Assembly: GCA_016875915.1 (NCBI GenBank)
Contig: VGOM01000007.1
Coordinates: 1-64,000 of the forward strand
Source of the DNA: Chloroflexota bacterium
GTDB taxonomy: Bacteria > Chloroflexota > Dehalococcoidia > UBA2247 > RBG-13-53-26
Length of the DNA: 64,000 nucleotides
Reading direction: 5' to 3'
Shown one piece after another: positions 10,449 to 50,854 of the stretch. Each line of letters begins with the position of its first letter. The stretch's first letter is position 1. The translations under genes were made by a program, and so were the position numbers. Below the pieces are notes generated by a model that did not search any database, had not been told where the DNA came from, and saw nothing but the letters and a program-made list of their open reading frames with translations.

Positions 10449-10476
10449 TGGATCCCGCATCAAGTGCGGGATGACA
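10449..10476. repeat. Conserved hairpin motif, copy 1 (TGGATCCCGCATCAAGTGCGGGATGACA)
   Basis: Perfect 8-bp stem ATCCCGCA/TGCGGGAT with TCAAG loop, about 80 bp downstream of the minus-strand MoCo gene stop. Same motif at 34546 and 40597. Confidence 0.7.
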
Positions 10477-10551: not shown

Positions 10552-12759
10552 TCAGGAGGCCTTGGCCACTTCGACCAGGGCGGTGTTGTAGGGGAAGGAG
10601 CCGCCGGGTGAGTGCCTGTCAGGGGTGAGGACGTTGGCGCAGCCACCTCTGTCCACGCGGTCCGGATCCGGGGCATACCAGGCCCCGTGGGGCACATCGA
10701 CCACGCCGGGCATGATCCTCTCCGTGACGCGGGCCTTGATGAGTATCTGCCCCCGGTCGTTGAACACCCTGACCATATCGCCATCGTTGATGCCACGAGC
10801 ACGGGCGTCTTCGGAGTTGATCAGCAGGGCATGATCCTGGAGTTCCCTCAGCCAAGGGATGTTCTCGAACTGACTGAGGGCCCGCCTCTTGAGATGGGTG
10901 GTGATCAGCTGCAGCGGGTACTTCCGGGCCAGGGGATCGTTGCGGCCTTCCCAGCTCCCGATGTACTTGGGGACGGCGGGCAGACCGGGTATGCCCAGGT
11001 CCGCCCACTGCCGTGAGTAGATTTCGATCTTCCCCGAGGGAGTGGGGAAGGGGTTGGCGGCCGGGTCTTTCACCTGAGCCCTGAAGGCAACGTAGGGCTC
11101 GATGGTCTTCAAGCGGTACACACCCCGCTTCTTGAAGCGGCGGTAGTCATAGACGCCGTTGTTCATGGCCCGTTCCTGCAGTATCTGCTCCTCAGTCTTG
11201 TCCAGATAGCCCTTGATGCCCAGGCGCTCGGCCAGTTCGGCGGCAATGCGCCAGGGGGGCCGGGATTCCCCCAGTGGTTCGATGACCTTGTTGACGCAGC
11301 CGACGTAGGCCGAGCCCACCCCCGGGGTGACGTCGTTCCTCTCCATGAAGGTGGCCACCGGCAGTATGATGTCGGCGAACTTGGCCGTGGGCGTCATGAA
11401 CTGCTCTTCGACGACGATGAACTCCAGGGAGTTCAGCGCCCGGGCGATCTTGTTGCTGTCGGGGAACTGGACCAGGTAGTTGCACTGGGCGACCACCAGC
11501 GCCTTGTAGTCGGCGAAGTAGCCGCCGGCCCTGCCTCTGAGGATAGCATCAGCCAGCCTGGTGAAGTGGACCCGGGGTCTGCGGTAGAAGAGGGGGACCT
11601 TGCGGTCCGGCGGGAAGGCCCTCTCCACGGGGTTGGGCGCCCGGTCTATGGCGCTGGTCATGGAGTTCACCGGGTAGGGGAAACCACCCATGACCGACTC
11701 CCAGGCCCGGGCTCCGGCGTCCCCGCCGTGGATGCCGACGTTGCCGGTCATGGCGGCCAGGGTGATGGCGGCACGGTGGAACTGCTCGCCGTAGGCGGTG
11801 CGGCCCGGGGCGATGCCAGCCATCAGCGCCGCAGGCCGAGTGGTGGCGTACTGCCGGGCAAGCTCGACGATGGTCCCAGCAGCGACGCCGGTGATACCCT
11901 CCGCCCACTGCGGCGTCTTCGCTACACCATCCTCCGAGCCCAGGACGTAGTCCTTGAACCGGTCGAAGCCGACGGTATGCGCGGCGATGAAGTCCCGGTC
12001 GTAAAGCTTTTCGTCGACCATGACATAGGCCATGGCGATAAGCATGGCAGTGTCCGTCCCCGGCCTGATCGGTATCCAGCTGTCGGCGAAGGCGGCAGCG
12101 CTGTCGGTGTGCCGGGGATCAACGGAGATGATCGTGGTGCCGGCCTCCCGGGCACGGGCCAGATACCAGCAGGTGTTGGGGCCGGTGATGGTGCTGGCCG
12201 GGTCCCAGCCCCACATGATGATCAGCCTGGAGTTGAGTAAATCGTCGCGGGTGTTGCTGGCGAACCAGGTGCCGTAGGTAACCATCGAAGCGTACACCCC
12301 GGCCTGAAAGGAGGTCACTCCCCAGGGCGAGGTGTAGCCGCCGGCCATGCTCAGCAGGCGGTCCAGGGCCCCGAAGTTGTTCAGGGAGCAAACATCACCA
12401 GTCATCTGGGCCAGGATGATGGCTGGCGGACCGTAGGCATCCCTGACCCTCTTCAGCTCGGCGGCAACGGTGTCCAGGGCCTCGTCCCAGGAGGTGCGCT
12501 GGAAGCGGCCCTCCCCCCGGGGACCCGCCCGCTTCAGGGGATAGAGCAGGCGGTCCGGGGCGTAGACCCTCTGGCGGTAGGCCCGCCCCCGGAGGCAGCC
12601 GCGGAGCTGGGGCTCCTCGCCGTCGTCGCTCTCTATCCTGGTGATGACGCCGTCTCTGACGTGGACCTTGAGGAGGCAGGCACCGCCGCAGTGGCTGGCG
12701 CACATGGTGGCGATGACCCTGTCGCCGCCGGTCGATGTGCCGCCTTTGCCGTGACTCAT
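10552..12759 (-). CDS. Molybdopterin (Mo/W-bisPGD) oxidoreductase catalytic subunit, DMSO-reductase family, cytoplasmic, copy 2
   Basis: 735 aa. N-terminal CxxxCxxxC...C [4Fe-4S] motif (CASHCGGACLLKVHVRDG), no twin-arginine signal, C-terminal molybdopterin dinucleotide-binding beta-barrel region. Close paralog of 13226..15436. Confidence 0.85.
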   Translation of the reverse strand: MSHGKGGTSTGGDRVIATMCASHCGGACLLKVHVRDGVITRIESDDGEEPQLRGCLRGRAYRQRVYAPDRLLYPLKRAGPRGEGRFQRTSWDEALDTVAAELKRVRDAYGPPAIILAQMTGDVCSLNNFGALDRLLSMAGGYTSPWGVTSFQAGVYASMVTYGTWFASNTRDDLLNSRLIIMWGWDPASTITGPNTCWYLARAREAGTTIISVDPRHTDSAAAFADSWIPIRPGTDTAMLIAMAYVMVDEKLYDRDFIAAHTVGFDRFKDYVLGSEDGVAKTPQWAEGITGVAAGTIVELARQYATTRPAALMAGIAPGRTAYGEQFHRAAITLAAMTGNVGIHGGDAGARAWESVMGGFPYPVNSMTSAIDRAPNPVERAFPPDRKVPLFYRRPRVHFTRLADAILRGRAGGYFADYKALVVAQCNYLVQFPDSNKIARALNSLEFIVVEEQFMTPTAKFADIILPVATFMERNDVTPGVGSAYVGCVNKVIEPLGESRPPWRIAAELAERLGIKGYLDKTEEQILQERAMNNGVYDYRRFKKRGVYRLKTIEPYVAFRAQVKDPAANPFPTPSGKIEIYSRQWADLGIPGLPAVPKYIGSWEGRNDPLARKYPLQLITTHLKRRALSQFENIPWLRELQDHALLINSEDARARGINDGDMVRVFNDRGQILIKARVTERIMPGVVDVPHGAWYAPDPDRVDRGGCANVLTPDRHSPGGSFPYNTALVEVAKAS

Positions 12760-33730: not shown

Positions 33731-33905
33731 CCAGCCTCTACCTCCCGGCTAGAATAACACGATAATCATTATCATGTTAGTCATAAATTATCATGGGCTC
33801 CAGGCCTTGTCAAGCGATTCCGTGATCCTGAAACGAAGGGGGAGTCAGTCGGCGTCCATCAACAGAAGTCAGGGGCCGGGCCGAGGATTCACCGCCGAAT
33901 CGGTG

Positions 33906-34145
33906 CTACTTCCGCCTGCTTCTGGCCGACGACCCAGACCGGCGGGGCGATCCGGCCCTGGCCGCCTCAAGCATGGTCTCCCACTTGCCTTCGCTCGGCA
34001 GCGGACGGCCGGCCTGCTGCGGGCTGTAGTGGTCGAGATACATCAGATTGCCGCACTGGACACAGTTCTCGTACCACTCACCGAGGTAACTGCCCATCAT
34101 GAGTATGCCTCCGCACTTGGGGCACTTCCGCGAACTGAGACCCAT
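33906..34145 (-). CDS. Small zinc-ribbon protein (80 aa), locus B partner
   Basis: Start taken at MGLSSRKCPKCGG. The CxxC-x19-CVQCGNLMYLDHY pattern echoes CQSCGTQKQFHNY in 45090..45368. Confidence 0.5.
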   Translation of the reverse strand: MGLSSRKCPKCGGILMMGSYLGEWYENCVQCGNLMYLDHYSPQQAGRPLPSEGKWETMLEAARAGSPRRSGSSARSRRK

Positions 34146-34213
34146 AACTGCACCTCTCCTTCCTGGTCTTCCGGGGAACTGCCTATGACGATAGTCCAGC
34201 GGGCATCTCCAGT

Positions 34214-34231
34214 CTGTGACCGCGGTCACAG
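34214..34231. promoter_or_regulatory. Perfect 18-bp palindrome CTGTGACCGCGGTCACAG (candidate operator)
   Basis: Exact dyad symmetry about 70-85 bp upstream of the zinc-ribbon gene start. Confidence 0.45.
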
Positions 34232-34545
34232 TCGGCATGAGAGTGAAGCAATGAACAGGCGGCACTTGCAGTCCGGCAACCCCCGTGTTATGATGGCATC
34301 AACAACTGAATAGACGATACATAGAGTCCAACGGGTCATAGCTCAACGGTTACAGCCAAACTAGGAGAAAGAAAGGGCCGATCTGAGCACTCAAGCGGAC
34401 TCTTTTCTTTTGCCCAGAACCGTCTGGAGTCAGCTGGCTTGGACTAGCCGAGACTCCACCCCGTCACCCCTGGAGGGAACCGGACAGACTGCCTCCATCG
34501 GGCTGGCAATACCACCACTGATTCGAGATTCGTCTTTGCGGGAAG

Positions 34546-34573
34546 TGGATGACGCATCAAGTGCGGCGTGACT
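34546..34573. repeat. Conserved hairpin motif, copy 2 (TGGATGACGCATCAAGTGCGGCGTGACT)
   Basis: Same loop TCAAG and GCA/TGC stem core as copies 1 and 3, with one mismatch and one G-U wobble. About 160 bp downstream of the minus-strand 5-Cys gene stop. Confidence 0.6.
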
Positions 34574-34729
34574 TGGGGCGAGTGCCGGGAGGGGCACGAG
34601 CCATACGCAAGGTGCAACCTGGGCGCGCATGTACCGGCAGCAAGAGGAGTGCACCGGCCAGCGGGAACTGTGTGACACGCAAATGCCCGCCCGGGGACAG
34701 GGGAGACAGTCCCCGTTGGCGGTCCGGGA

Positions 34730-34984
34730 TCAGCCGTAGCTGAACTGCTGCTCCGGCTCGGATCTCCTCACCCGCCGGTGAGTCACTATGGATGGCACGT
34801 GCATACAGCCGATAAGGCGGTCGGCGAGGTCCTGGCAATCACTCATGTAACGGCAGTTGCGGCAGTCGTCGTTCGTCCTGCTGCAGGCGAAGGCCCAGCG
34901 TTCAATTAGCTTGTCGTCGTCCTTCTTGGGATACCACCTGGCCCATCTCTGTCGTCCACTGGATTTCTCTCCCATTACGCGCAT
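34730..34984 (-). CDS. Small 5-Cys protein, family member B (84 aa)
   Basis: Start at MRVMGEK with GGAGGAG RBS. RQRWARWYPKKDDDKLIERWAFACSRTNDDCRNCRYMSDCQDLADRLIGCM aligns with 45374..45622 at identical Cys positions 34/41/44/50/60. Confidence 0.65.
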   Translation of the reverse strand: MRVMGEKSSGRQRWARWYPKKDDDKLIERWAFACSRTNDDCRNCRYMSDCQDLADRLIGCMHVPSIVTHRRVRRSEPEQQFSYG

Positions 34985-35111
34985 GCCTCTGTCTCCTCCT
35001 TCTGAAAAGGGGGGATGGTTTTGGAATAGGGCAAGCATAGGGGAGGGAGATTAGCTCCAGATGAGGGCAACCTTAGAAGAGCCTTAGAGTTTTGTCACAG
35101 AGCGGAGGCCG

Positions 35112-35139
35112 TGTTATACTTTTACCAGTTCAAGTATAA
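35112..35139. promoter_or_regulatory. 9-bp inverted repeat GTTATACTT-N10-AAGTATAAC (candidate GntR-type operator)
   Basis: Perfect inverted repeat about 25-50 bp upstream of the GntR-PBP regulator ATG, in the divergent intergenic region. Confidence 0.4.
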
Positions 35140-35163
35140 CAATATCCAGCGATCGGCACCGGC

Positions 35164-36360
35164 ATGGCAGCACGCAAGACAACCGCCCAAACCCCGCCTG
35201 AGGGGAAGTCAACGGCCATTCTCCTCGGCGACACCGCTCACTCCCCGCTCTTCACCCAGATAGTGGCACAGGTGAGGCAACTGGTAGCCACTGGCAGGCT
35301 GAAGCCAGGCGAACGCTTGCCCACCGTCAGGGAATTGGCGGACACCCTCGGGGTCAGCCCCGGCACAGTGGTCAGGGCCTATCTCGATCTGGAGAAGCAG
35401 GGGGTTGTCCAGTCCAGGCGAGGGGCGGGCACGTTCGTCTCCGCCAGTGTCGGACGTCCCGGAGCGTCTGCGCTGCGCAGGGGCCAGCTCTCCAACATAG
35501 TGAGCGGCAGCATCCTGGAAGCCCTGACTCTGGGCTTTGAGCCCGATGAAGTGGAGGCGGCCTTCTCGGTGCACCTGGCCCGCTGGCGCGAGGAGCGACA
35601 GCGGCTAGCAGCCACACCACCGAAGAGAGGCAGGAACGGGAACAAGACGATTGCCATTGTCGCCAGCCATGACCTGGCGCTCAACCTTCTGGTGAGCCAT
35701 CTCAAACAGCGCGATCCCCGGACTCGGGTAGAGGTGACCTATGCCGGAAGCCTGGGCAGCCTGATCGCCCTGCAGGGCGGAAGGGCCGACATAGCCGGCA
35801 TCCACCTCCTGGATGGTGAGACCGGGGAATACAACTGCCCCTACGTGAAGCACGTCCTCCCCAACCAGGAGGTGGCCGTAGTGCACCTCGCCTACAGAGT
35901 GCAGGGCATGATGTTCGCCGCGGGCAACCCCAAGCGGATCAAGGGACTGGAGGACCTGAAGCGTCCCGATGTCAGGATGCTCAACCGCCAGAAGGGCTCG
36001 GGGACCCGGGTACTGCTGGACTTCCAGTTGCAGCAACTGGGGATAGCGCCGCGTGACGTTCAGGGATACGAAACAGAGGTGGACACCCATCTGGCTGTGG
36101 CCGACGGCGTGGCCCGGGGAGAGGCAGACGTGGGCATGGGCATCGAGGCGGCCGCCAGAGCCTGCGGGGCCGACTTCCTGCCACTGTTCAGGGAGAGATA
36201 CGACCTGATCATCCCGATGGAGACCTACAAGAGCAGGCGGCTGTCCCATCTCCTGGAGATCGTAGCCAGCGAGGATTTCAGAAGGGTGGTGGCCGAGACC
36301 GGGGGCTATGACACCTCACAGACCGGGGCGACCACCTTCTGCAGATACGAGAAGAACTAG
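35164..36360 (+). CDS. GntR-family HTH regulator fused to a periplasmic-binding-protein-like (tungstate/molybdate-binding-like) domain
   Basis: N-terminal winged HTH (LPTVRELADTLGVSPGTVVRAYLDLE), C-terminal PBP type-2-like domain. Sits immediately upstream of tupABC. Confidence 0.75.
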   Translation: MAARKTTAQTPPEGKSTAILLGDTAHSPLFTQIVAQVRQLVATGRLKPGERLPTVRELADTLGVSPGTVVRAYLDLEKQGVVQSRRGAGTFVSASVGRPGASALRRGQLSNIVSGSILEALTLGFEPDEVEAAFSVHLARWREERQRLAATPPKRGRNGNKTIAIVASHDLALNLLVSHLKQRDPRTRVEVTYAGSLGSLIALQGGRADIAGIHLLDGETGEYNCPYVKHVLPNQEVAVVHLAYRVQGMMFAAGNPKRIKGLEDLKRPDVRMLNRQKGSGTRVLLDFQLQQLGIAPRDVQGYETEVDTHLAVADGVARGEADVGMGIEAAARACGADFLPLFRERYDLIIPMETYKSRRLSHLLEIVASEDFRRVVAETGGYDTSQTGATTFCRYEKN

Positions 36361-36566
36361 GCACTCCGAGCCCTGACCCCTAGGGGCGGTGAGCCTACGG
36401 GGCAGCGGCCGGCAGGGTATCGCGGGAAACGGCGATGCCTCCCTCAGCTTGGAAAGGAGTGTATGGCTAGAAGGGCAGGCCCGGAATGCCGGGCGCCACC
36501 GGGTACGGATTGATGTCTTTGATGCGATCGGCCCCATGTTTATGTAAATAAAGGACAGAAGGATCA

Positions 36567-40596: not shown

Positions 40597-40624
40597 TGGA
40601 TGCCGCATCAAGTGCGGCATGACA
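40597..40624. repeat. Conserved hairpin motif, copy 3 (TGGATGCCGCATCAAGTGCGGCATGACA)
   Basis: Perfect 8-bp stem ATGCCGCA/TGCGGCAT with TCAAG loop. Differs from copy 1 by a compensatory C-G to G-C swap. About 80 bp downstream of the lepA stop. Shares the upstream CCACCC flank with copy 1. Confidence 0.7.
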
Positions 40625-40698: not shown

Positions 40699-42494
40699 CT
40701 ACTCCTCGAGCTTGAGGAGGGAGAGGAAGGCTTCCTGGGGCACCTCCACGGAGCCAACCATCTTCATGCGCTTCTTGCCCTCTTTCTGCTTCTCAAGGAG
40801 CTTCCTCTTGCGGGTAACATCGCCGCCGTAGCACTTGGCCAGAACGTCCTTCCTGATCGGGGCGATGTCCTCTCTGGCCACGATCCTGCCACCGATGGAC
40901 GCCTGGAGGGGGACCTTGAACTGCTGCCGGGGGATGAGCTTCCTCAGCTTGCTCACCAGCACCCTAGCCCGTGCAATGGCGGCATCCCGGGTGGCGATGT
41001 AGGAGAAGGCATCCACAGGGTCGCCGTTGACCAGGATGTCCACCTTCACCAGGTCGCCGGTGCGGTAGCCGGCGAGCTCATAGTCCATGCTGGCATAGCC
41101 CTGGCTGACGCTCTTGAGCCGGTCGTAGAAGTCGGCGATGATCTCCACCAGGGGGAAGTCGTAGGTGAGGACCACCCTCCTCTGATCCGGATGATCCATG
41201 CCCGCCAGCGTGCCCCGGCGGGAGCTGGCCAGCTCCATGCAGGGTCCCACGAAGGCGGTGGGGACGACAATCTGGGCCCGGATCATGGGCTCCTCTATGT
41301 GGTCGATCTCCTGGACACTGGGGAACTTCGAGGGGTTGTCGATCATGAGCACATCGCCCGCGGTGGTGGCCACCTTGTAGACCACCGAGGGCATGGTGGC
41401 GATGAGGTTCTGCTCGTACTCGCGGCGCAGTCTCTCCACAGTGATCTCCATGTGGAGCATGCCCAGGAAGCCAACGCGGAAGCCATGGCCCAGGGCGGCG
41501 GAGTTCTCCTTCTGGAAGACGATGGAGGAGTCGTTGAGCTGGAGCTTCTCCAGGGCCATCTTGAGCTTGTCATAGTCGCCGGTGTCCACCGGGTAGAGTC
41601 CGCAGAAGACCATGGGCTGGAGCCGTCTGAAGCCGGCGATGAACGGGGTCTCCGGATGCTCCGGCGAGATGATGGTGTCACCGACACTGACATCGGCCAC
41701 TTCCCGGACCATGGCGCTGACGTAGCCCACGTCGCCGGCCACCAGCCGCTGGCAGGGCATGGGCTGGGGACTGAAGTGGCCCACGTCCTCCACATCGAAG
41801 GTCTTGCCGCTGGACTTGACCAGGATATGGTCGCCGGGCGAGATGCTGCCGGAGAAGACCCGGATGTGGGCGATGACCCCGCGATAGGGGTCGTAGTGGG
41901 AGTCAAAGACGAGGCAACTGAGGGGGGCGGCGGGCTCTCCTCCGGGGTGCGGGATGCGCGACACAATGGCCTCCAGGAGCGCGGGCACGCCGGTGCCCTC
42001 CCGGGCGGAGACCAGCAGGGCATCCTCGGCGGGCAGTCCGAGCATCTCCTCGAGCTGGAGCAGGCAGTCGTCGATCATGGCATTGGGGAGGTCGATCTTG
42101 TTGATCACGGGGATGATCTCCAAGCCGGCGTCAACGGCGAAGTAGGCATTGCCGATGGTCTGGGCCTCGACGCCCTGCGAGGCATCCACCAGGAGGACAG
42201 CCCCCTCACAGGCCTTGAGGCTGCGGGAGACCTCGTAGTTGAAGTCGATGTGGCCGGGGGTGTCAATCAGGTTCAGGACGTACTCAGCGCCGCCGGGGGA
42301 CCTGTAGGGTATCCTGACCGGTTTGGCCTTGATGGTGATGCCCCGCTCACGCTCCAGGTCCATGCTGTCCAGGACCTGCTCGCTGCCGGAGGTGCGGATC
42401 ACCCCGGTCAGCTCGAGGATGCGGTCGGCCAGGCTGGACTTGCCGTGGTCGATGTGGGCAATGATGCAGAAGTTGCGGATGGCCTTGGTCTTGC

Positions 42495-42498
<4 letters not shown>
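40699..42498 (-). CDS. lepA: Elongation factor 4 (LepA)
   Basis: IRNFCIIAHIDHGKSSLADR G1 motif, DTPGHIDF, and the LepA-specific C-terminal domain. Confidence 0.95.
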
Positions 42499-45089: not shown

Positions 45090-45368
45090 ATGGTGACCAG
45101 AAGCGCGGTAGCAGACGAAGAGACGGTAGCGGAGGAGAGGGGGGCCGAGTGTCAACACCACTGGGTGATTGATGCGGCAGCGGGGCCGGTGAGCAGCGGG
45201 AGGTGTCAGAGCTGCGGGACCCAGAAGCAGTTCCACAACTACCTGCCTGACTGCCTGGCGAACAAAGACAGGGAGACATACGAAGGGTGGCTGGCGAAGC
45301 ACAGCCAGAATGAGAGAAAGAGGTCCAGAGCGAAGCGGGGCATCGTGTCTCTTCTTGACGAGGACTAG
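45090..45368 (+). CDS. Small zinc-ribbon-like protein (92 aa), locus A partner
   Basis: AAGGGGGT RBS. CQHH...CQSCGTQKQFHNY. Only 5 nt upstream of the 5-Cys gene. Confidence 0.5.
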   Translation: MVTRSAVADEETVAEERGAECQHHWVIDAAAGPVSSGRCQSCGTQKQFHNYLPDCLANKDRETYEGWLAKHSQNERKRSRAKRGIVSLLDED

Positions 45369-45373
45369 GGGAG

Positions 45374-45622
45374 ATGGGGATGGCGGATGATATCCAGGGT
45401 GTGAGGCGGCGATGGGCCAGGTGGTATCCCAAGAAGCAGGATGACACCATAATTGAGCGCTGGGCCCGGGCTTGTAGTAGAATTAATAACGACTGTCGGG
45501 ACTGCGGTTTCGGCGAGGAGTGTCAGGACCTTGCCGACCGTCTCATTGTATGCATGACGGCATTACCGGGCAGAGGCGGACGCCGACAGAGAGGGCAGGA
45601 TCCCGGTCAAGGCAGCAACTGA
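45374..45622 (+). CDS. Small 5-Cys protein, family member A (82 aa)
   Basis: RRRWARWYPKKQDDTIIERWARACSRINNDCRDCGFGEECQDLADRLIVCM. Paralog of 34730..34984. Immediately upstream of dnaJ-clpB. Confidence 0.65.
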   Translation: MGMADDIQGVRRRWARWYPKKQDDTIIERWARACSRINNDCRDCGFGEECQDLADRLIVCMTALPGRGGRRQRGQDPGQGSN

Positions 45623-50053: not shown

Positions 50054-50854
50054 TTGAAGATCGTGCGTTTTGGGGCCGGGGGCAGGGCCAGGTACGGTGT
50101 GCTAGAAGGAGATACCATCCGCGGCCTCCGGGGCAGCCCCTTCGCCGACTCCGGAGTCGGCCTTGGCTCCCTCGAGTTCGACGGCAAGACCCTCGATGCG
50201 GGCAAGGCGAAGCTGCTCGCTCCCTGCACTCCATCCAAGCTGGTGTGCCTGGGGGTGAACTACCGCAGCCACGCTGAAGAGACAGGACTGCCCACGCCCC
50301 CGCTGCCCCTGATCTTCCTCAAGCCGTCCACGGCAGTGATCGGCCCGGAGGAGAAGATCGTCCTGCCCCCGCTGCCCAAGCGCCGCGTGGACTACGAAGC
50401 AGAGCTGGGAGTGGTCATCGGGAGAAGGGCCAGAAACGTGGCCAGGGAGGAGTTCGGCCGGTACGTGCTGGGCTACACCTGTGTGAACGACGTCACGGAG
50501 CGCTACGCTCAGCGGGACGACGGCCAGTGGACAAGGGCCAAGAGCTTCGACACCTTCGCCCCCATCGGGCCCTGGATCGAGACCGACATCAGCCCGCATG
50601 ACCTGAAGATCGAGAGTTGCCTCAACGGCGAGGTCCGCCAGTCAGCCCGGACCAGTGATCTGATATTCGGCGTGGCGGAGCTGGTGAGCTTCATCTCCGG
50701 CATCATGACGCTGCTGCCGGGCGATGTGATCGCCACAGGCACGCCCTCGGGCATCGGGCGGATGAATGCCGGCGATGTGATCGAGATCAGGATCGAGGGG
50801 ATCGGCACGCTGAGGAACTTCGTGGTGGACCAGTCTCAAGGAGAAGCGGCATGA
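50054..50854 (+). CDS. Fumarylacetoacetate hydrolase (FAH) family protein
   Basis: TTG start after GGGGGAG RBS. FAH-fold motifs (KLVCLGVNYRSHAEE, YEAELGVVIG, GDVIATGTPSGIG). Confidence 0.8.
   Translation: MKIVRFGAGGRARYGVLEGDTIRGLRGSPFADSGVGLGSLEFDGKTLDAGKAKLLAPCTPSKLVCLGVNYRSHAEETGLPTPPLPLIFLKPSTAVIGPEEKIVLPPLPKRRVDYEAELGVVIGRRARNVAREEFGRYVLGYTCVNDVTERYAQRDDGQWTRAKSFDTFAPIGPWIETDISPHDLKIESCLNGEVRQSARTSDLIFGVAELVSFISGIMTLLPGDVIATGTPSGIGRMNAGDVIEIRIEGIGTLRNFVVDQSQGEAA

What the first reader, a model, noticed from the sequence alone, without database searches (positions are those of the whole stretch)
33906..34984. Second copy of the small Cys-protein module, with the partners separated by a 580-bp structured spacer
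The paralogous 5-Cys gene (34730..34984, strong GGAGGAG RBS) and a zinc-ribbon gene (33906..34145) sit on the same strand as in locus A, but in the opposite order. They are separated by about 580 bp of non-coding DNA that holds the degenerate hairpin-motif copy, a perfect 18-bp palindrome and several further hairpins. The locus is also divergently arranged against the GntR-PBP/tupABC regulator operon.
Basis: seen in the sequence. Interest (0 to 1): 0.6.

Follow-up and report, generated by a model that had tools for sequence, protein, structure and literature searches.

The report
Cys gene, hidden sRNA, zinc-ribbon gene
The 584-bp gap between a small four-cysteine protein gene and a small zinc-ribbon gene in this uncultured Dehalococcoidia genome is not one structured leader: it is non-coding DNA made of separate conserved signals, including what looks like an undescribed small RNA gene on the opposite strand.

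Summary
The sequence features are real. They comprise an 84-aa Cys gene (34730..34984, -) 54% identical to 45374..45622, a 79-aa CxxC/CxxC gene (33906..34145, -), a 584-bp gap, a perfect 18-bp palindrome, a decayed copy of a repeated hairpin, and a divergent GntR-PBP/tup operon.

- The zinc-ribbon gene is not homologous to the partner at locus A (hhalign probability 1.8%). That partner lies directly upstream of the Cys gene in 21 of the 29 related genome loci.
- As RNA, the gap folds no better than shuffled sequence (z = +0.84).

Ten orthologous loci (eight distinct spacer sequences) show fixed-geometry blocks joined by linkers of variable length:
1. A REP-like hairpin 3' of the Cys gene.
2. 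A ~130-nt block more conserved than synonymous sites. On the + strand it reads TTGCAG-17-TGnTATGAT, then a long stem-loop and a T-tract, giving a candidate ~110-nt sRNA antisense to both genes.
3. A TGTGA-N6-TCACA box, always 85-86 nt before the zinc-ribbon ATG in six of seven lineages and centred at about -41.5. This fits a class II CRP/FNR-type promoter.

The locus is therefore most likely three transcription units. No frameshifted gene was found. The Cys protein belongs to a tiny orphan family with four invariant cysteines. Nothing here was tested for expression.

The parts
34730..34984 (-). cysB: 84-aa small Cys protein. Invariant C34, C41, C44, C50 with C-x6-C-x2-C-x5-C spacing, then CQDLADRLI and a basic tail.
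   Evidence: ORF and RBS. Start codon and SD conserved in 8 orthologues. Family alignments. About 90% aa identity among orthologues.
33906..34145 (-). znB: 79-aa zinc-ribbon-like protein (CPKC-x16-CVQC, invariant GEWYENCVQCGNL, basic C-terminus).
   Evidence: The 64-aa calls in public MAGs start at an internal ATG. The upstream ATGGGTCTCAGTTCC... start is conserved in the DNA alignment.
34146..34729 (.). 584-bp gap that does not encode protein. Fixed-geometry blocks are joined by variable linkers.
   Evidence: Orthologous gaps measure 441-702 bp to the true znB ATG. Linkers are 50-249, 127-163 and 37-147 nt, while block-internal distances are constant. No conserved ORF and no Pfam hit.
34266..34294 (+). 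Candidate promoter of the sRNA: -35 TTGCAG (34266-34271), 17-nt spacer, TG (34286-34287), -10 TATGAT (34289-34294).
   Evidence: Hexamers and the 17-nt spacing are the same in all 9 distinct sequences, while the spacer sequence varies. L001 and L003 have TTGCCA at -35, and L001 has TATCAT at -10. It is below the threshold of the consensus scanner because the -35 matches only 3 of 6.
34301..34411 (+). Candidate ~110-nt small RNA; both ends are predicted. It has a 5' tail with conserved GAAUAGA, a long imperfect stem-loop (AGAGTCC 34323-34329 pairs with GGACTCT 34397-34403) and a T-tract (34404-34411).
   Evidence: Conservation 0.89 against 0.71 at codon position 3. All 21 pairs are canonical (100%) on + against 86% on the mirrored - strand. 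Conservation stops at the -35 box and just after the T-tract. No Rfam family matches.
34214..34231 (.). Perfect palindrome. Its core, TGTGA-N6-TCACA (34215-34230), is a candidate CRP/FNR-type operator of the znB promoter.
   Evidence: Unique in the window. Half-sites are invariant and the centre varies (CCGCGG, CAGAGG, CCGTGG). It lies 85-86 nt from the znB ATG in 6 of 7 lineages. The centre falls at -41.5 if TATCGT is the -10 (counted).
34188..34193 (-). Inferred -10 box of znB (TATCGT on the minus strand). The predicted TSS is near 34181.
   Evidence: CTATCGT is conserved in the orthologues (TAACTT in L044) at a fixed distance from the palindrome and the ATG. This is inferred, not mapped.
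34169..34178 (.). Second short palindrome, TTCCCCGGAA on the gene strand (TTCCCGGGAA in L041-L044), just downstream of the predicted znB TSS.
   Evidence: Conserved in the spacer alignment. Its function is unknown.
34549..34569 (-). Decayed copy of a repeated hairpin (mRNA sense GUCAU-SCCGCA-CUUGA-UGCGGS-AUCCA), 161 nt after the cysB stop codon.
   Evidence: Three copies in the window against none in shuffles. Intact in L038, L041, L043 and L044, with a compensatory G-C to C-G swap in L044 and in the copy at 10452. The local copy folds at only -3.7 kcal/mol.
35035..35088 (-). Probable cysB promoter region: -10 TATGCT (35040..35035) preceded by CTAAGG direct repeats 11 bp apart (35072-35077 and 35083-35088 on the + strand).
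   Evidence: The block is conserved in the orthologues. It is also found upstream of partner-less Cys genes of other genomes: L004, L006, L009, L014, L018 and L028.
45090..45622 (+). Locus A, for comparison: znA (45090..45368) followed directly by cysA (45374..45622), upstream of dnaJ/cbpA and clpB.
   Evidence: The same pfk / znA / Cys / dnaJ order occurs in ten other loci (listed in the full report).

Best explanation
The 1.08-kb region most likely holds three separately controlled transcription units rather than one operon with a structured leader.

1. cysB is monocistronic. It is transcribed from a promoter carrying CTAAGG direct repeats that it shares with partner-less Cys genes of other Dehalococcoidia. 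Its message ends at or near a REP-like hairpin. The product is a small protein with four invariant cysteines, so most likely a metal or Fe-S binding domain. I infer that it acts as a regulatory cofactor or sensor.

2. In the middle of the gap, on the opposite (+) strand, a promoter with an extended -10 box (TTGCAG-17-TGnTATGAT) drives a ~110-nt RNA. This RNA consists of a short single-stranded 5' tail and one long imperfect stem-loop closed by AGAGTCC/GGACTCT, followed by a U-tract. It converges on cysB. It would be fully complementary to any read-through from cysB towards znB, so it could act as a cis-antisense insulator, and it may also act in trans.

3. znB has its own activator-dependent promoter. 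A TGTGA-N6-TCACA box centred about 41.5 bp upstream of the predicted start replaces a -35 box, which is the geometry of class II CRP/FNR promoters.

Shown here: the genes, the conservation pattern, the motif geometry, the strand asymmetry of pairing, and the absence of coding signal.
Inferred: every transcript end, the binding proteins, the metal site, and all functions.
For: Modular architecture:
- Distances inside blocks are constant: sRNA stem to -10, 108-109 nt; -10 to -35, 23-24 nt; CRP-like box to znB ATG, 85-86 nt in 6 of 7 lineages.
- The linkers between blocks vary: 50-249, 127-163 and 37-147 nt.

sRNA:
- Nine distinct copies exist.
- Mean pairwise identity of the stem-loop is 0.89, against 0.71 for cysB third codon positions. 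For the most divergent pairs it is 0.85 against 0.56.
- Conservation begins at the -35 hexamer and ends a few bases after the T-tract.
- The promoter hexamers and the 17-nt spacing are conserved while the spacer sequence is not.
- All 21 stem pairs are canonical in all sequences on the + strand, against 86% for the mirror image on the - strand. The three substitutions found in stems (A-U to G-U, G-U to A-U, U-G to U-A) keep pairing on + only.
- Canonical hairpin-plus-T terminators are not enriched in this genome region (13 against 9.4 +/- 3.0), so a conserved T-tract stands out.

znB promoter:
- The exact CRP consensus occurs once in 64 kb.
- The half-sites are invariant and the centre varies.
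- The centre is at -41.5 by counting from TATCGT.

Separate units:
- The REP-like hairpin also lies about 80 nt after the stops of two other minus-strand genes.

Non-coding status.
Against: - There are no expression data of any kind.
- No stem pair shows a change on both sides, because the nine sequences are too similar. The structure is therefore not proven by covariation.
- The MFE of the candidate RNA is unremarkable (z = -0.96).
- The -35 matches the consensus at only 3 of 6 positions in most copies, and the consensus scanner does not call the promoter.
- The terminator stem is long-range rather than a compact GC hairpin.
- The znB -10 and TSS are guesses, so '-41.5' depends on them.
- No CRP-family gene was found among ten mid-sized ORFs of the window.
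- The palindrome also folds as a hairpin (z = -2.1).
- cysB has no recognisable T-tract terminator, so read-through into znB cannot be excluded.
- No target of the RNA could be predicted.
Confidence: 0.55

Rival explanations
1. One operon. cysB and znB are co-transcribed on the minus strand. The conserved block then acts in cis within the long intercistronic RNA, for example as a processing site, a protein-binding platform or a riboswitch-like element controlling znB.
For: - Both genes are on the same strand, and the arrangement is conserved in all orthologues.
- No T-tract terminator follows cysB.
- The block can also be drawn as a stem-loop on the minus strand, with a pyrimidine-rich apical loop.
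Against: - Mirrored pairing is only 86% canonical. All three stem substitutions create A-C mismatches on this strand.
- MFE z = +0.22 for the block and +0.84 for the whole gap.
- The conserved TGnTATGAT and TTGCAG boxes with fixed spacing, and the T-tract, have no role on this strand.
- znB has its own conserved, fixed-distance upstream signals.
- No Rfam cis-regulatory family matches.
Confidence: 0.2
2. The conserved block is a DNA-level control region with no stable RNA product, for example an upstream activating or architectural site for znB or for cysB termination. On this view the promoter-like and terminator-like features are coincidental, or they produce only a short-lived transcript whose synthesis matters through transcriptional interference.
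For: - The block has very high sequence conservation without covariation. This is what protein-binding DNA looks like.
- Two other palindromic operators lie nearby.
- The organism shows few canonical terminators.
Against: - A block of 130 nt is long for an operator.
- Its distance to the znB promoter varies from 37 to 147 nt. That argues against a phased upstream site.
- Its boundaries coincide with a -35 box and a T-tract.
- The pairing asymmetry between strands is unexplained under this model.
Confidence: 0.17
3. The gap is a decayed gene or a remnant of a mobile element.
For: - Long stop-free stretches exist: 99 and 94 codons on the gene strand.
- Frame 0 after the cysB stop is open for 70-102 codons in five of seven orthologues.
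Against: - Translations in that frame are unrelated between orthologues, and L001 and L003 end in TAG rather than TGA.
- Indels are not multiples of three.
- No Pfam domain was found in the ten longest stop-free stretches, which cover five of the six frames (the eleventh, 40 aa, was not scanned).
- In 62% GC DNA a given frame stays open for 99 codons in roughly 5% of cases (my estimate from base composition).
- The best-conserved part has no ORF common to the orthologues. The ATG of the 37-aa ORF at 34226..34339 is absent in L001, L041 and L043.
Confidence: 0.03

Closest known systems
WhiB-like (Wbl) proteins of Actinobacteria
   Same: Both are small proteins of about 80-100 aa with four conserved cysteines that include C-x2-C-x5-C, and with a basic, Arg/Gly-rich C-terminal tail. 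Both occur as several paralogues per genome wired to stress loci; here one copy sits in a dnaJ-clpB operon.
   Different: The first Cys gap is 6 residues here, not 14-22. There is no G[VI]WGG turn. No hit was obtained in Pfam, NCBIfam, PDB sequence searches or fold searches. The phylum is different (Chloroflexota). Fe-S binding is untested. This is at most an analogy.
[4Fe-4S] cluster loop of endonuclease III / MutY glycosylases
   Same: The cysteine spacing is identical, Cys-X6-Cys-X2-Cys-X5-Cys. That spacing is described for EndoIII and MutY in PMC11138216. Here it is C34, C41, C44 and C50.
   Different: There is no HhH-GPD glycosylase domain; the protein is only 84 aa. No sequence or structural similarity was detected. 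Distant family members have x5-x7 in the first gap.
Class II CRP/FNR-dependent promoters
   Same: An exact TGTGA-N6-TCACA box is centred about 41.5 bp upstream of the inferred start. There is no recognisable -35 box, and the distance to the gene is fixed.
   Different: The TSS is not mapped. No cognate regulator was identified. Whether regulators of this lineage use the E. coli-type half-site is unknown.
Small regulatory RNAs, cis-antisense or trans-acting, with their own sigma-70 promoter and intrinsic terminator (for example plasmid ctRNAs)
   Same: Its size is about 110 nt. It has an extended -10 promoter, one long imperfect stem-loop, a U-tract, and it is oriented antisense to the flanking genes. 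The best (non-significant) Rfam match is ctRNA_p42d, E = 0.83.
   Different: It matches no Rfam family. It is chromosomal. It overlaps no annotated ORF. No target is known. It was found only in this one locus of one narrow Dehalococcoidia clade.
REP-like repetitive extragenic palindromes / 3'-UTR stabiliser hairpins
   Same: A short palindrome is repeated at several extragenic sites, always 3' of a gene, with compensatory stem changes.
   Different: The loop (CUUGA) and the flanks are conserved. There are only three copies in 64 kb and no T-tract. Its function is untested.

Membership tests
WhiB-like (Wbl, Pfam PF02467) | Match to the family profile | tested here: not met
   No Pfam or NCBIfam family matched either Cys paralogue at E <= 1. 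A profile search of PDB sequences, which I expected to include solved Wbl proteins (not verified), gave nothing relevant.
WhiB-like (Wbl, Pfam PF02467) | Cys-X(14-22)-Cys-X2-Cys-X5-Cys, followed by a G[VI]WGG turn (definition from my own knowledge of the family) | tested here: not met
   C-x2-C-x5-C is present, but the first gap is 6 residues and no GxWGG follows. CQDLADRLI follows instead.
EndoIII/MutY-type [4Fe-4S] site | Cys-X6-Cys-X2-Cys-X5-Cys spacing | tested here: met
   C34, C41, C44 and C50 are invariant in 50 sequences. The motif definition is from PMC11138216.
EndoIII/MutY-type [4Fe-4S] site | The motif is embedded in an HhH-GPD glycosylase fold | tested here: not met
EndoIII/MutY-type [4Fe-4S] site | The protein actually binds an Fe-S cluster | not testable with these tools
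   This needs purified protein with UV-visible, EPR or Moessbauer spectroscopy.
Locus-A 'module' (znA + Cys protein) | A partner of the C-x-H-[HY]-W...CxxC...NYLxDC family lies immediately upstream of the Cys gene | tested here: not met
   tblastn with znA finds nothing near 34000-35200. znB against znA profiles gives hhalign probability 1.8%.
Zinc ribbon (znB) | Two CxxC knuckles 15-20 residues apart, plus a profile match | tested here: inconclusive
   CPKC-x16-CVQC is nearly invariant. All Pfam and NCBIfam zinc-ribbon hits are below the curated cut-offs; the best are S27ae at E = 3e-4 and Auto_anti-p27 at 0.015.
Class II CRP/FNR-dependent promoter | A palindromic TGTGA-N6-TCACA (or related) site | tested here: met
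   The exact site is at 34215-34230 and is unique in the window. It is conserved in all orthologues.
Class II CRP/FNR-dependent promoter | Site centred at -41.5 relative to the TSS | tested here: inconclusive
   This holds only if TATCGT (34193..34188) is the -10 box. The TSS is not mapped. The distance to the ATG is fixed at 85-86 nt.
Class II CRP/FNR-dependent promoter | A cognate CRP/FNR-family regulator is present | tested here: inconclusive
   None was found among ten 179-266-aa ORFs of the window. The rest of the genome is not available.
Bacterial small RNA gene | Own promoter and terminator, with conservation above the neutral level | tested here: met
   The promoter is below the consensus-scan threshold and the terminator is non-canonical.
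Bacterial small RNA gene | Secondary structure supported by covariation | tested here: inconclusive
   No pair has a change on both sides. Three one-sided changes are compatible with pairing. Pairs are 100% canonical on + against 86% on -.
Bacterial small RNA gene | A discrete transcript is detected | not testable with these tools
   No transcriptome data are available here.
Any Rfam family | Score at or above the gathering threshold | tested here: not met
   Only the Moco riboswitch at 36352-36475 passes. Within 33800-35200 the best match has E = 0.41.

The most novel reading that the evidence does not exclude
The Cys protein family could be a Chloroflexota counterpart of the actinobacterial WhiB proteins. 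On this reading it is a tiny Fe-S (C-x6-C-x2-C-x5-C) redox- or metal-sensing transcription cofactor that has radiated into paralogues. One paralogue is coupled to a dedicated Zn-finger partner in the dnaJ-clpB heat-shock operon. One lies in front of a two-component system. One sits in a tungsten/iron/cysteine homeostasis neighbourhood. The last copy would be flanked by a dedicated, previously unknown antisense-oriented small RNA that controls the cysB and znB pair.
Probability: 0.15. Interest if true: 0.7.

Novelty: new member of a known kind. Interest (0 to 1): 0.38.

Why it matters
Dehalococcoidia are abundant, mostly uncultured bacteria with very few characterised regulators and, as far as one library search showed, no described small RNAs.

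If the candidate RNA is real, it would be a new RNA family with a clearly delimited promoter and terminator. It could be looked for directly in existing metatranscriptomes.

The Cys protein family has only 31 representatives among 1.84 billion clustered proteins. Its four invariant cysteines have the spacing of a known [4Fe-4S] site, and some distant members appear fused to winged-helix DNA-binding domains (weak Pfam hits). That makes it a plausible new type of small metal or redox sensor.

In practical terms, the analysis corrects three things:
- the mis-called start of the zinc-ribbon gene in several public MAGs (64 aa instead of 79 aa);
- the spurious 'ribosomal protein S27AE' label given to that gene by JGI;
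- the assumption that any two adjacent small Cys-rich genes form one module.

All of this concerns one narrow lineage and rests on sequence comparison alone.

Tried and rejected
- Rfam at gathering and at E <= 10: nothing in the locus.
- tRNA/tmRNA scan: none.
- nhmmer with the block against 374 kb of related loci and the window: no further copies.
- Metagenome scan for the invariant 21-mer: one extra locus only.
- Duplex prediction between the sRNA and the 5' regions of cysB, znB and macB in six orthologues: no better than shuffled RNA. A 6-nt GAAUAG/CUAUUC match to the cysB leader is not kept in L041, so I dropped it.
- RNA-thermometer or SD-sequestering hairpin in the cysB leader: z = +0.58, dropped.
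- Stop-codon read-through or selenocysteine after the cysB TGA: rejected. L001 and L003 use TAG and the downstream translations are unrelated.
- A small ORF (37 aa, 34226..34339) opposite the sRNA as a possible type I toxin: its ATG is absent in L001, L041 and L043.
- PDB sequence profile search: nothing significant.
- Search for a CRP-family gene in the window: none among ten ORFs.
- One-mismatch CRP-like sites at 50482 and 60634: both are inside coding regions.
- Literature search for small RNAs in Dehalococcoidia: no paper.
- I ran no further search on translated spacer frames, because the comparative evidence already settles that point.
Full report
**What is at the coordinates**

Both genes lie on the minus strand.
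- The ORF at 34730..34984 encodes 84 aa (MRVMGEKSSGRQRWARWYPKK...). A GGAGGAG Shine-Dalgarno sequence lies 8 nt before the ATG.
- That ATG and the GAAGGAGG box are conserved in all orthologues, whereas the second in-frame ATG is not.
- 33906..34145 encodes 79 aa with CPKC-x16-CVQC.
- The gap between the two genes is 584 bp.
- tblastn finds one paralogue of the Cys protein in the window, at 45374..45622 (+): 54% identity over 79 aa, E = 2e-22. It finds no paralogue of the zinc-ribbon protein.
- Upstream and divergent lie a GntR+PBP_like regulator (35164..36360) and a Moco/tungsten riboswitch (36352..36475, 74.7 bits), followed by tupA-like genes.
- Downstream of the zinc-ribbon gene lie MacB/FtsX, an ABC ATPase and an FtrD-like protein.

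**The proteins**

Neither Cys paralogue matches any Pfam or NCBIfam model. The family is very small:
- 31 clusters in a 5.8-billion-protein collection;
- 31 representatives at E <= 0.001 among 1.84 billion 50%-identity clusters, using a profile;
- 29 loci in the species-representative genomes, all in Dehalococcoidia/Chloroflexota MAGs, with two or three paralogues per genome in most of them.

Across 50 sequences the invariant residues are C34, C41, C44, C50 and D55. D24, R29, W30, A33, Q51, L53 and L57 are nearly invariant. The fifth cysteine (C60) is lost in distant members, so this is a four-Cys domain.

The spacing C-x6-C-x2-C-x5-C is the one described for the [4Fe-4S] site of endonuclease III and MutY (PMC11138216). 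However, no sequence or fold similarity to those enzymes or to WhiB proteins was detected. AlphaFold gives two helices (residues 21-37 and 47-59) with pLDDT 71-80 in the core only.

Three distant members carry an N-terminal extension with weak winged-helix hits (E about 1e-3, below threshold). That is a hint of a link to transcription and no more than that.

**Is it the same module as locus A?**

At locus A the Cys gene is preceded, 5 nt upstream, by a 92-aa gene at 45090..45368. It is followed by dnaJ/cbpA and clpB.
- Homologues of that partner (signature C-x-H-[HY]-W...CxxC...NYLxDC) lie immediately upstream of the Cys gene in 21 of the 29 genome loci, and also in metagenome locus L008, with or without dnaJ.
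- The zinc-ribbon protein at 33906..34145 is a different family of 16 clusters. The profile-profile comparison of the two partner families gives probability 1.8%.
- The window's second Cys gene belongs to the class that has no such partner (L004, L005, L006, L009, L014, L018, L028 and others).
- Most of that class shares a distinct upstream block: TTCTAA-N5-TTCTAAGG ... CTAAGCT ... TATNNT.
- In L006, L007, L012, L014 and L018 the partner-less Cys gene is followed by an OmpR-type response regulator (a histidine kinase as well in L006, L007, L012 and L014; L018 ends inside the regulator gene).

The order GntR-PBP <- -> Cys gene, long gap, zinc-ribbon gene is nonetheless kept in every orthologue recovered (L001, L002, L038-L045). 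It is kept in L044, where the MacB cassette is missing. L003 ends inside the gap and L046 lacks the Cys gene. These are close relatives (Cys protein about 90% identical), so the synteny is weak evidence for a functional link.

**The gap does not encode protein and is not unusually structured**

- Orthologous gaps measure 441 to 702 bp to the true znB start and differ by many indels that are not multiples of three.
- The stop-free stretches differ in frame and in translation between orthologues.
- The ten longest stop-free stretches, covering five of the six frames, have no Pfam match.
- An apparent open frame after the cysB stop is not conserved, and L001 and L003 end in TAG.
- Folded as one RNA, the gap is no more stable than dinucleotide shuffles: -213.3 against -219 +/- 6.8 kcal/mol, z = +0.84.
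- The extra GC-rich hairpins I picked out by eye (about 34583..34709) lie mostly in sequence that aligns against gaps in the orthologues; I did not verify them as hairpins with a tool.

**What is conserved inside the gap**

Three blocks have fixed internal geometry and are joined by variable linkers.

(a) The repeated hairpin
- In mRNA sense it reads GUCAU-SCCGCA-CUUGA-UGCGGS-AUCCA.
- The window holds three copies (10452, 34549, 40600), against none in shuffles.
- Each lies after the stop of a minus-strand gene: about 80 nt at 10452 and 40600, and 161 nt here.
- L044 and the 10452 copy carry a compensatory G-C to C-G swap.
- The copy in this gap has two stem mismatches and folds at only -3.7 kcal/mol, but it is intact in L038, L041, L043 and L044.
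- No T-tract follows it on either strand, so I treat it as a REP-like 3' hairpin.

(b) A ~130-nt block (34266..34415)
- It is present in nine distinct sequences.
- Mean pairwise identity of its stem-loop is 0.89, against 0.71 for cysB third codon positions and 0.94 for positions 1 and 2. For the most divergent pairs it is 0.85 against 0.56.
- On the + strand the block starts with TTGCAG (TTGCCA in L001 and L003). Exactly 17 variable nucleotides follow, then TGnTATGAT, an extended -10 box.
- About 28 nt later it forms a long imperfect hairpin closed by AGAGTCC/GGACTCT, which runs directly into TTTTCTTTT or TTTTTTGTT. Conservation collapses a few bases after that.
- All 21 predicted pairs are canonical in all sequences on the + strand, against 86% for the mirror image on the minus strand.
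- The three stem substitutions, and three invariant G-U pairs, are tolerated only on the + strand.
- Weak points: no pair has changes on both sides, the MFE z-score is only -0.96, and the -35 is weak.
- No Rfam family matches. No other copy exists in 374 kb of related DNA.
- My reading is an unannotated ~110-nt small RNA gene, antisense in orientation to both flanking genes and convergent with cysB.

(c) The 18-bp palindrome
- Its core is an exact TGTGA-N6-TCACA, the only one in 64 kb.
- The half-sites are invariant and the centre varies (CCGCGG, CAGAGG, CCGTGG).
- It lies 85-86 nt before the znB ATG in six of seven lineages, whereas its distance to block (b) varies from 37 to 147 nt. It therefore belongs to znB.
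- Counting from the conserved TATCGT (34193..34188), the centre falls at -41.5 and no -35 box is present. This is the layout of class II CRP/FNR-dependent promoters. That comparison rests on established knowledge of the family, and the TSS is inferred.
- A second small palindrome (TTCCCCGGAA, 34169-34178) follows the predicted start.
- No CRP-family gene was found among ten candidate ORFs of the window.

**Most likely mechanism**

There are three units.
1. cysB is transcribed from the CTAAGG-repeat promoter (-10 at 35040..35035) and ends around the REP-like hairpin.
2. The small RNA is transcribed from the opposite strand towards cysB.
3. znB is transcribed from an activator-dependent promoter.

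The RNA would pair perfectly with any read-through from cysB towards znB, so a cis-antisense, insulating role is the simplest mechanistic guess. A trans role cannot be assessed, because duplex predictions against neighbouring leaders were no better than shuffles.

The neighbourhood suggests that the two small metalloproteins take part in metal or sulfur homeostasis. It contains a tungstate transporter with a Moco riboswitch, an ABC/FtrD-like cassette behind a Fur-box-like sequence, and cysteine synthase. This is inference only.

I give the three-unit model 0.55. I give a single operon with a cis-acting intercistronic element 0.20, a purely DNA-level control region 0.17, and a decayed gene 0.03.

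**Comparison with known systems and novelty**

The Cys protein resembles WhiB proteins in size, in part of its Cys motif, in its basic tail and in its paralogue radiation. It resembles EndoIII/MutY in exact Cys spacing. It fails the profile, motif and fold tests for both, so it is a member of neither. The candidate RNA is an ordinary kind of element (a promoter- and terminator-delimited sRNA) but belongs to no described family. The znB promoter looks like a textbook class II site.

Overall this is a new member of known kinds in a poorly studied lineage. It is not a new kind of system, and nothing is experimentally supported. Interest: 0.38.

Noticed in passing
window 33761-33773: GATAATCATTATC lies between the znB stop and the macB start. 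It matches 13 contiguous positions of the Fur-box consensus as I recall it, and 15 of 19 over the full box by eye. GATAAT[CA]ATTATC sits at the same place in L038, L043 and L046. This suggests the MacB/ABC/FtrD-like cassette is iron-regulated and has its own promoter.
   Followed up: partly
window 35035-35090; L004, L006, L009, L014, L018, L028 upstream of their Cys genes: Partner-less Cys genes of different genomes share an upstream block with CTAAG(G) repeats 11 bp apart, plus a third copy and a TATNNT box. In L006, L007, L012, L014 and L018 the Cys gene is followed by an OmpR-type response regulator, and by a histidine kinase too in L006, L007, L012 and L014 (L018 ends inside the regulator gene). 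The repeats may be that regulator's binding sites. No such regulator was found in the window.
   Followed up: partly
window 10452-10472 and 40600-40620: Two intact copies of the hairpin ATSCCGCA-TCAAG-TGCGGSAT lie about 80 nt downstream of the stops of the minus-strand genes 10552..12759 and 40699..42498. Hairpin-plus-T terminators are not enriched in 30-50 kb. This motif may be the lineage's 3'-end signal.
   Followed up: partly
L041-L045 (public MAG and metagenome gene calls) and JGI annotations of P0032/P0033: The zinc-ribbon gene is called as 64 aa from an internal ATG, which removes the first CxxC knuckle. The conserved upstream ATG gives 79 aa. JGI names two members 'ribosomal protein S27AE', which rests on a sub-threshold resemblance.
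   Followed up: yes
P0065, P0066, P0074 (distant homologues): The four-Cys domain occurs at the C-terminus of 167-184-aa proteins whose N-terminal parts give weak MarR_2 or Trans_reg_C hits in P0065 and P0074 (E about 1e-3, below cut-off; P0066 gave none). This would link the domain to DNA-binding regulators.
   Followed up: partly
window 45090-45368 and 21 of the 29 genome loci, plus L008: The locus-A partner is itself an uncharacterised family with invariant C21, H23, W25, C39, C42, F48, N50, Y51, D54, C55 and W67. It always lies directly upstream of a Cys gene. Its only Pfam signal is a sub-threshold DUF5817 hit.
   Followed up: partly
window 35092-35142: The gntR promoter-like site (TTGTCA-17-TATACT with TG, 10 of 12 matches) faces a second TGnTATACT-like box on the minus strand (TTGTTATACT, 35142..35133). 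That box is partly conserved in the orthologues. The two sites would overlap back to back; the significance is unknown.
   Followed up: no
window 34169-34178: A palindrome (TTCCCCGGAA here, TTCCCGGGAA in L041-L044) is conserved just downstream of the predicted znB transcription start. It could be a repressor site.
   Followed up: no
sRNA apical loop, window about 34351-34375: The apical part of the stem-loop exists in two discrete versions. CCAAACTAGGAGAAAGAAAG occurs in the window, with point variants in L038, L041 and L044. GTAATCATTAGAGATAAAG occurs in L001, with point variants in L003, L043 and L046. This split does not follow overall sequence similarity.
   Followed up: no
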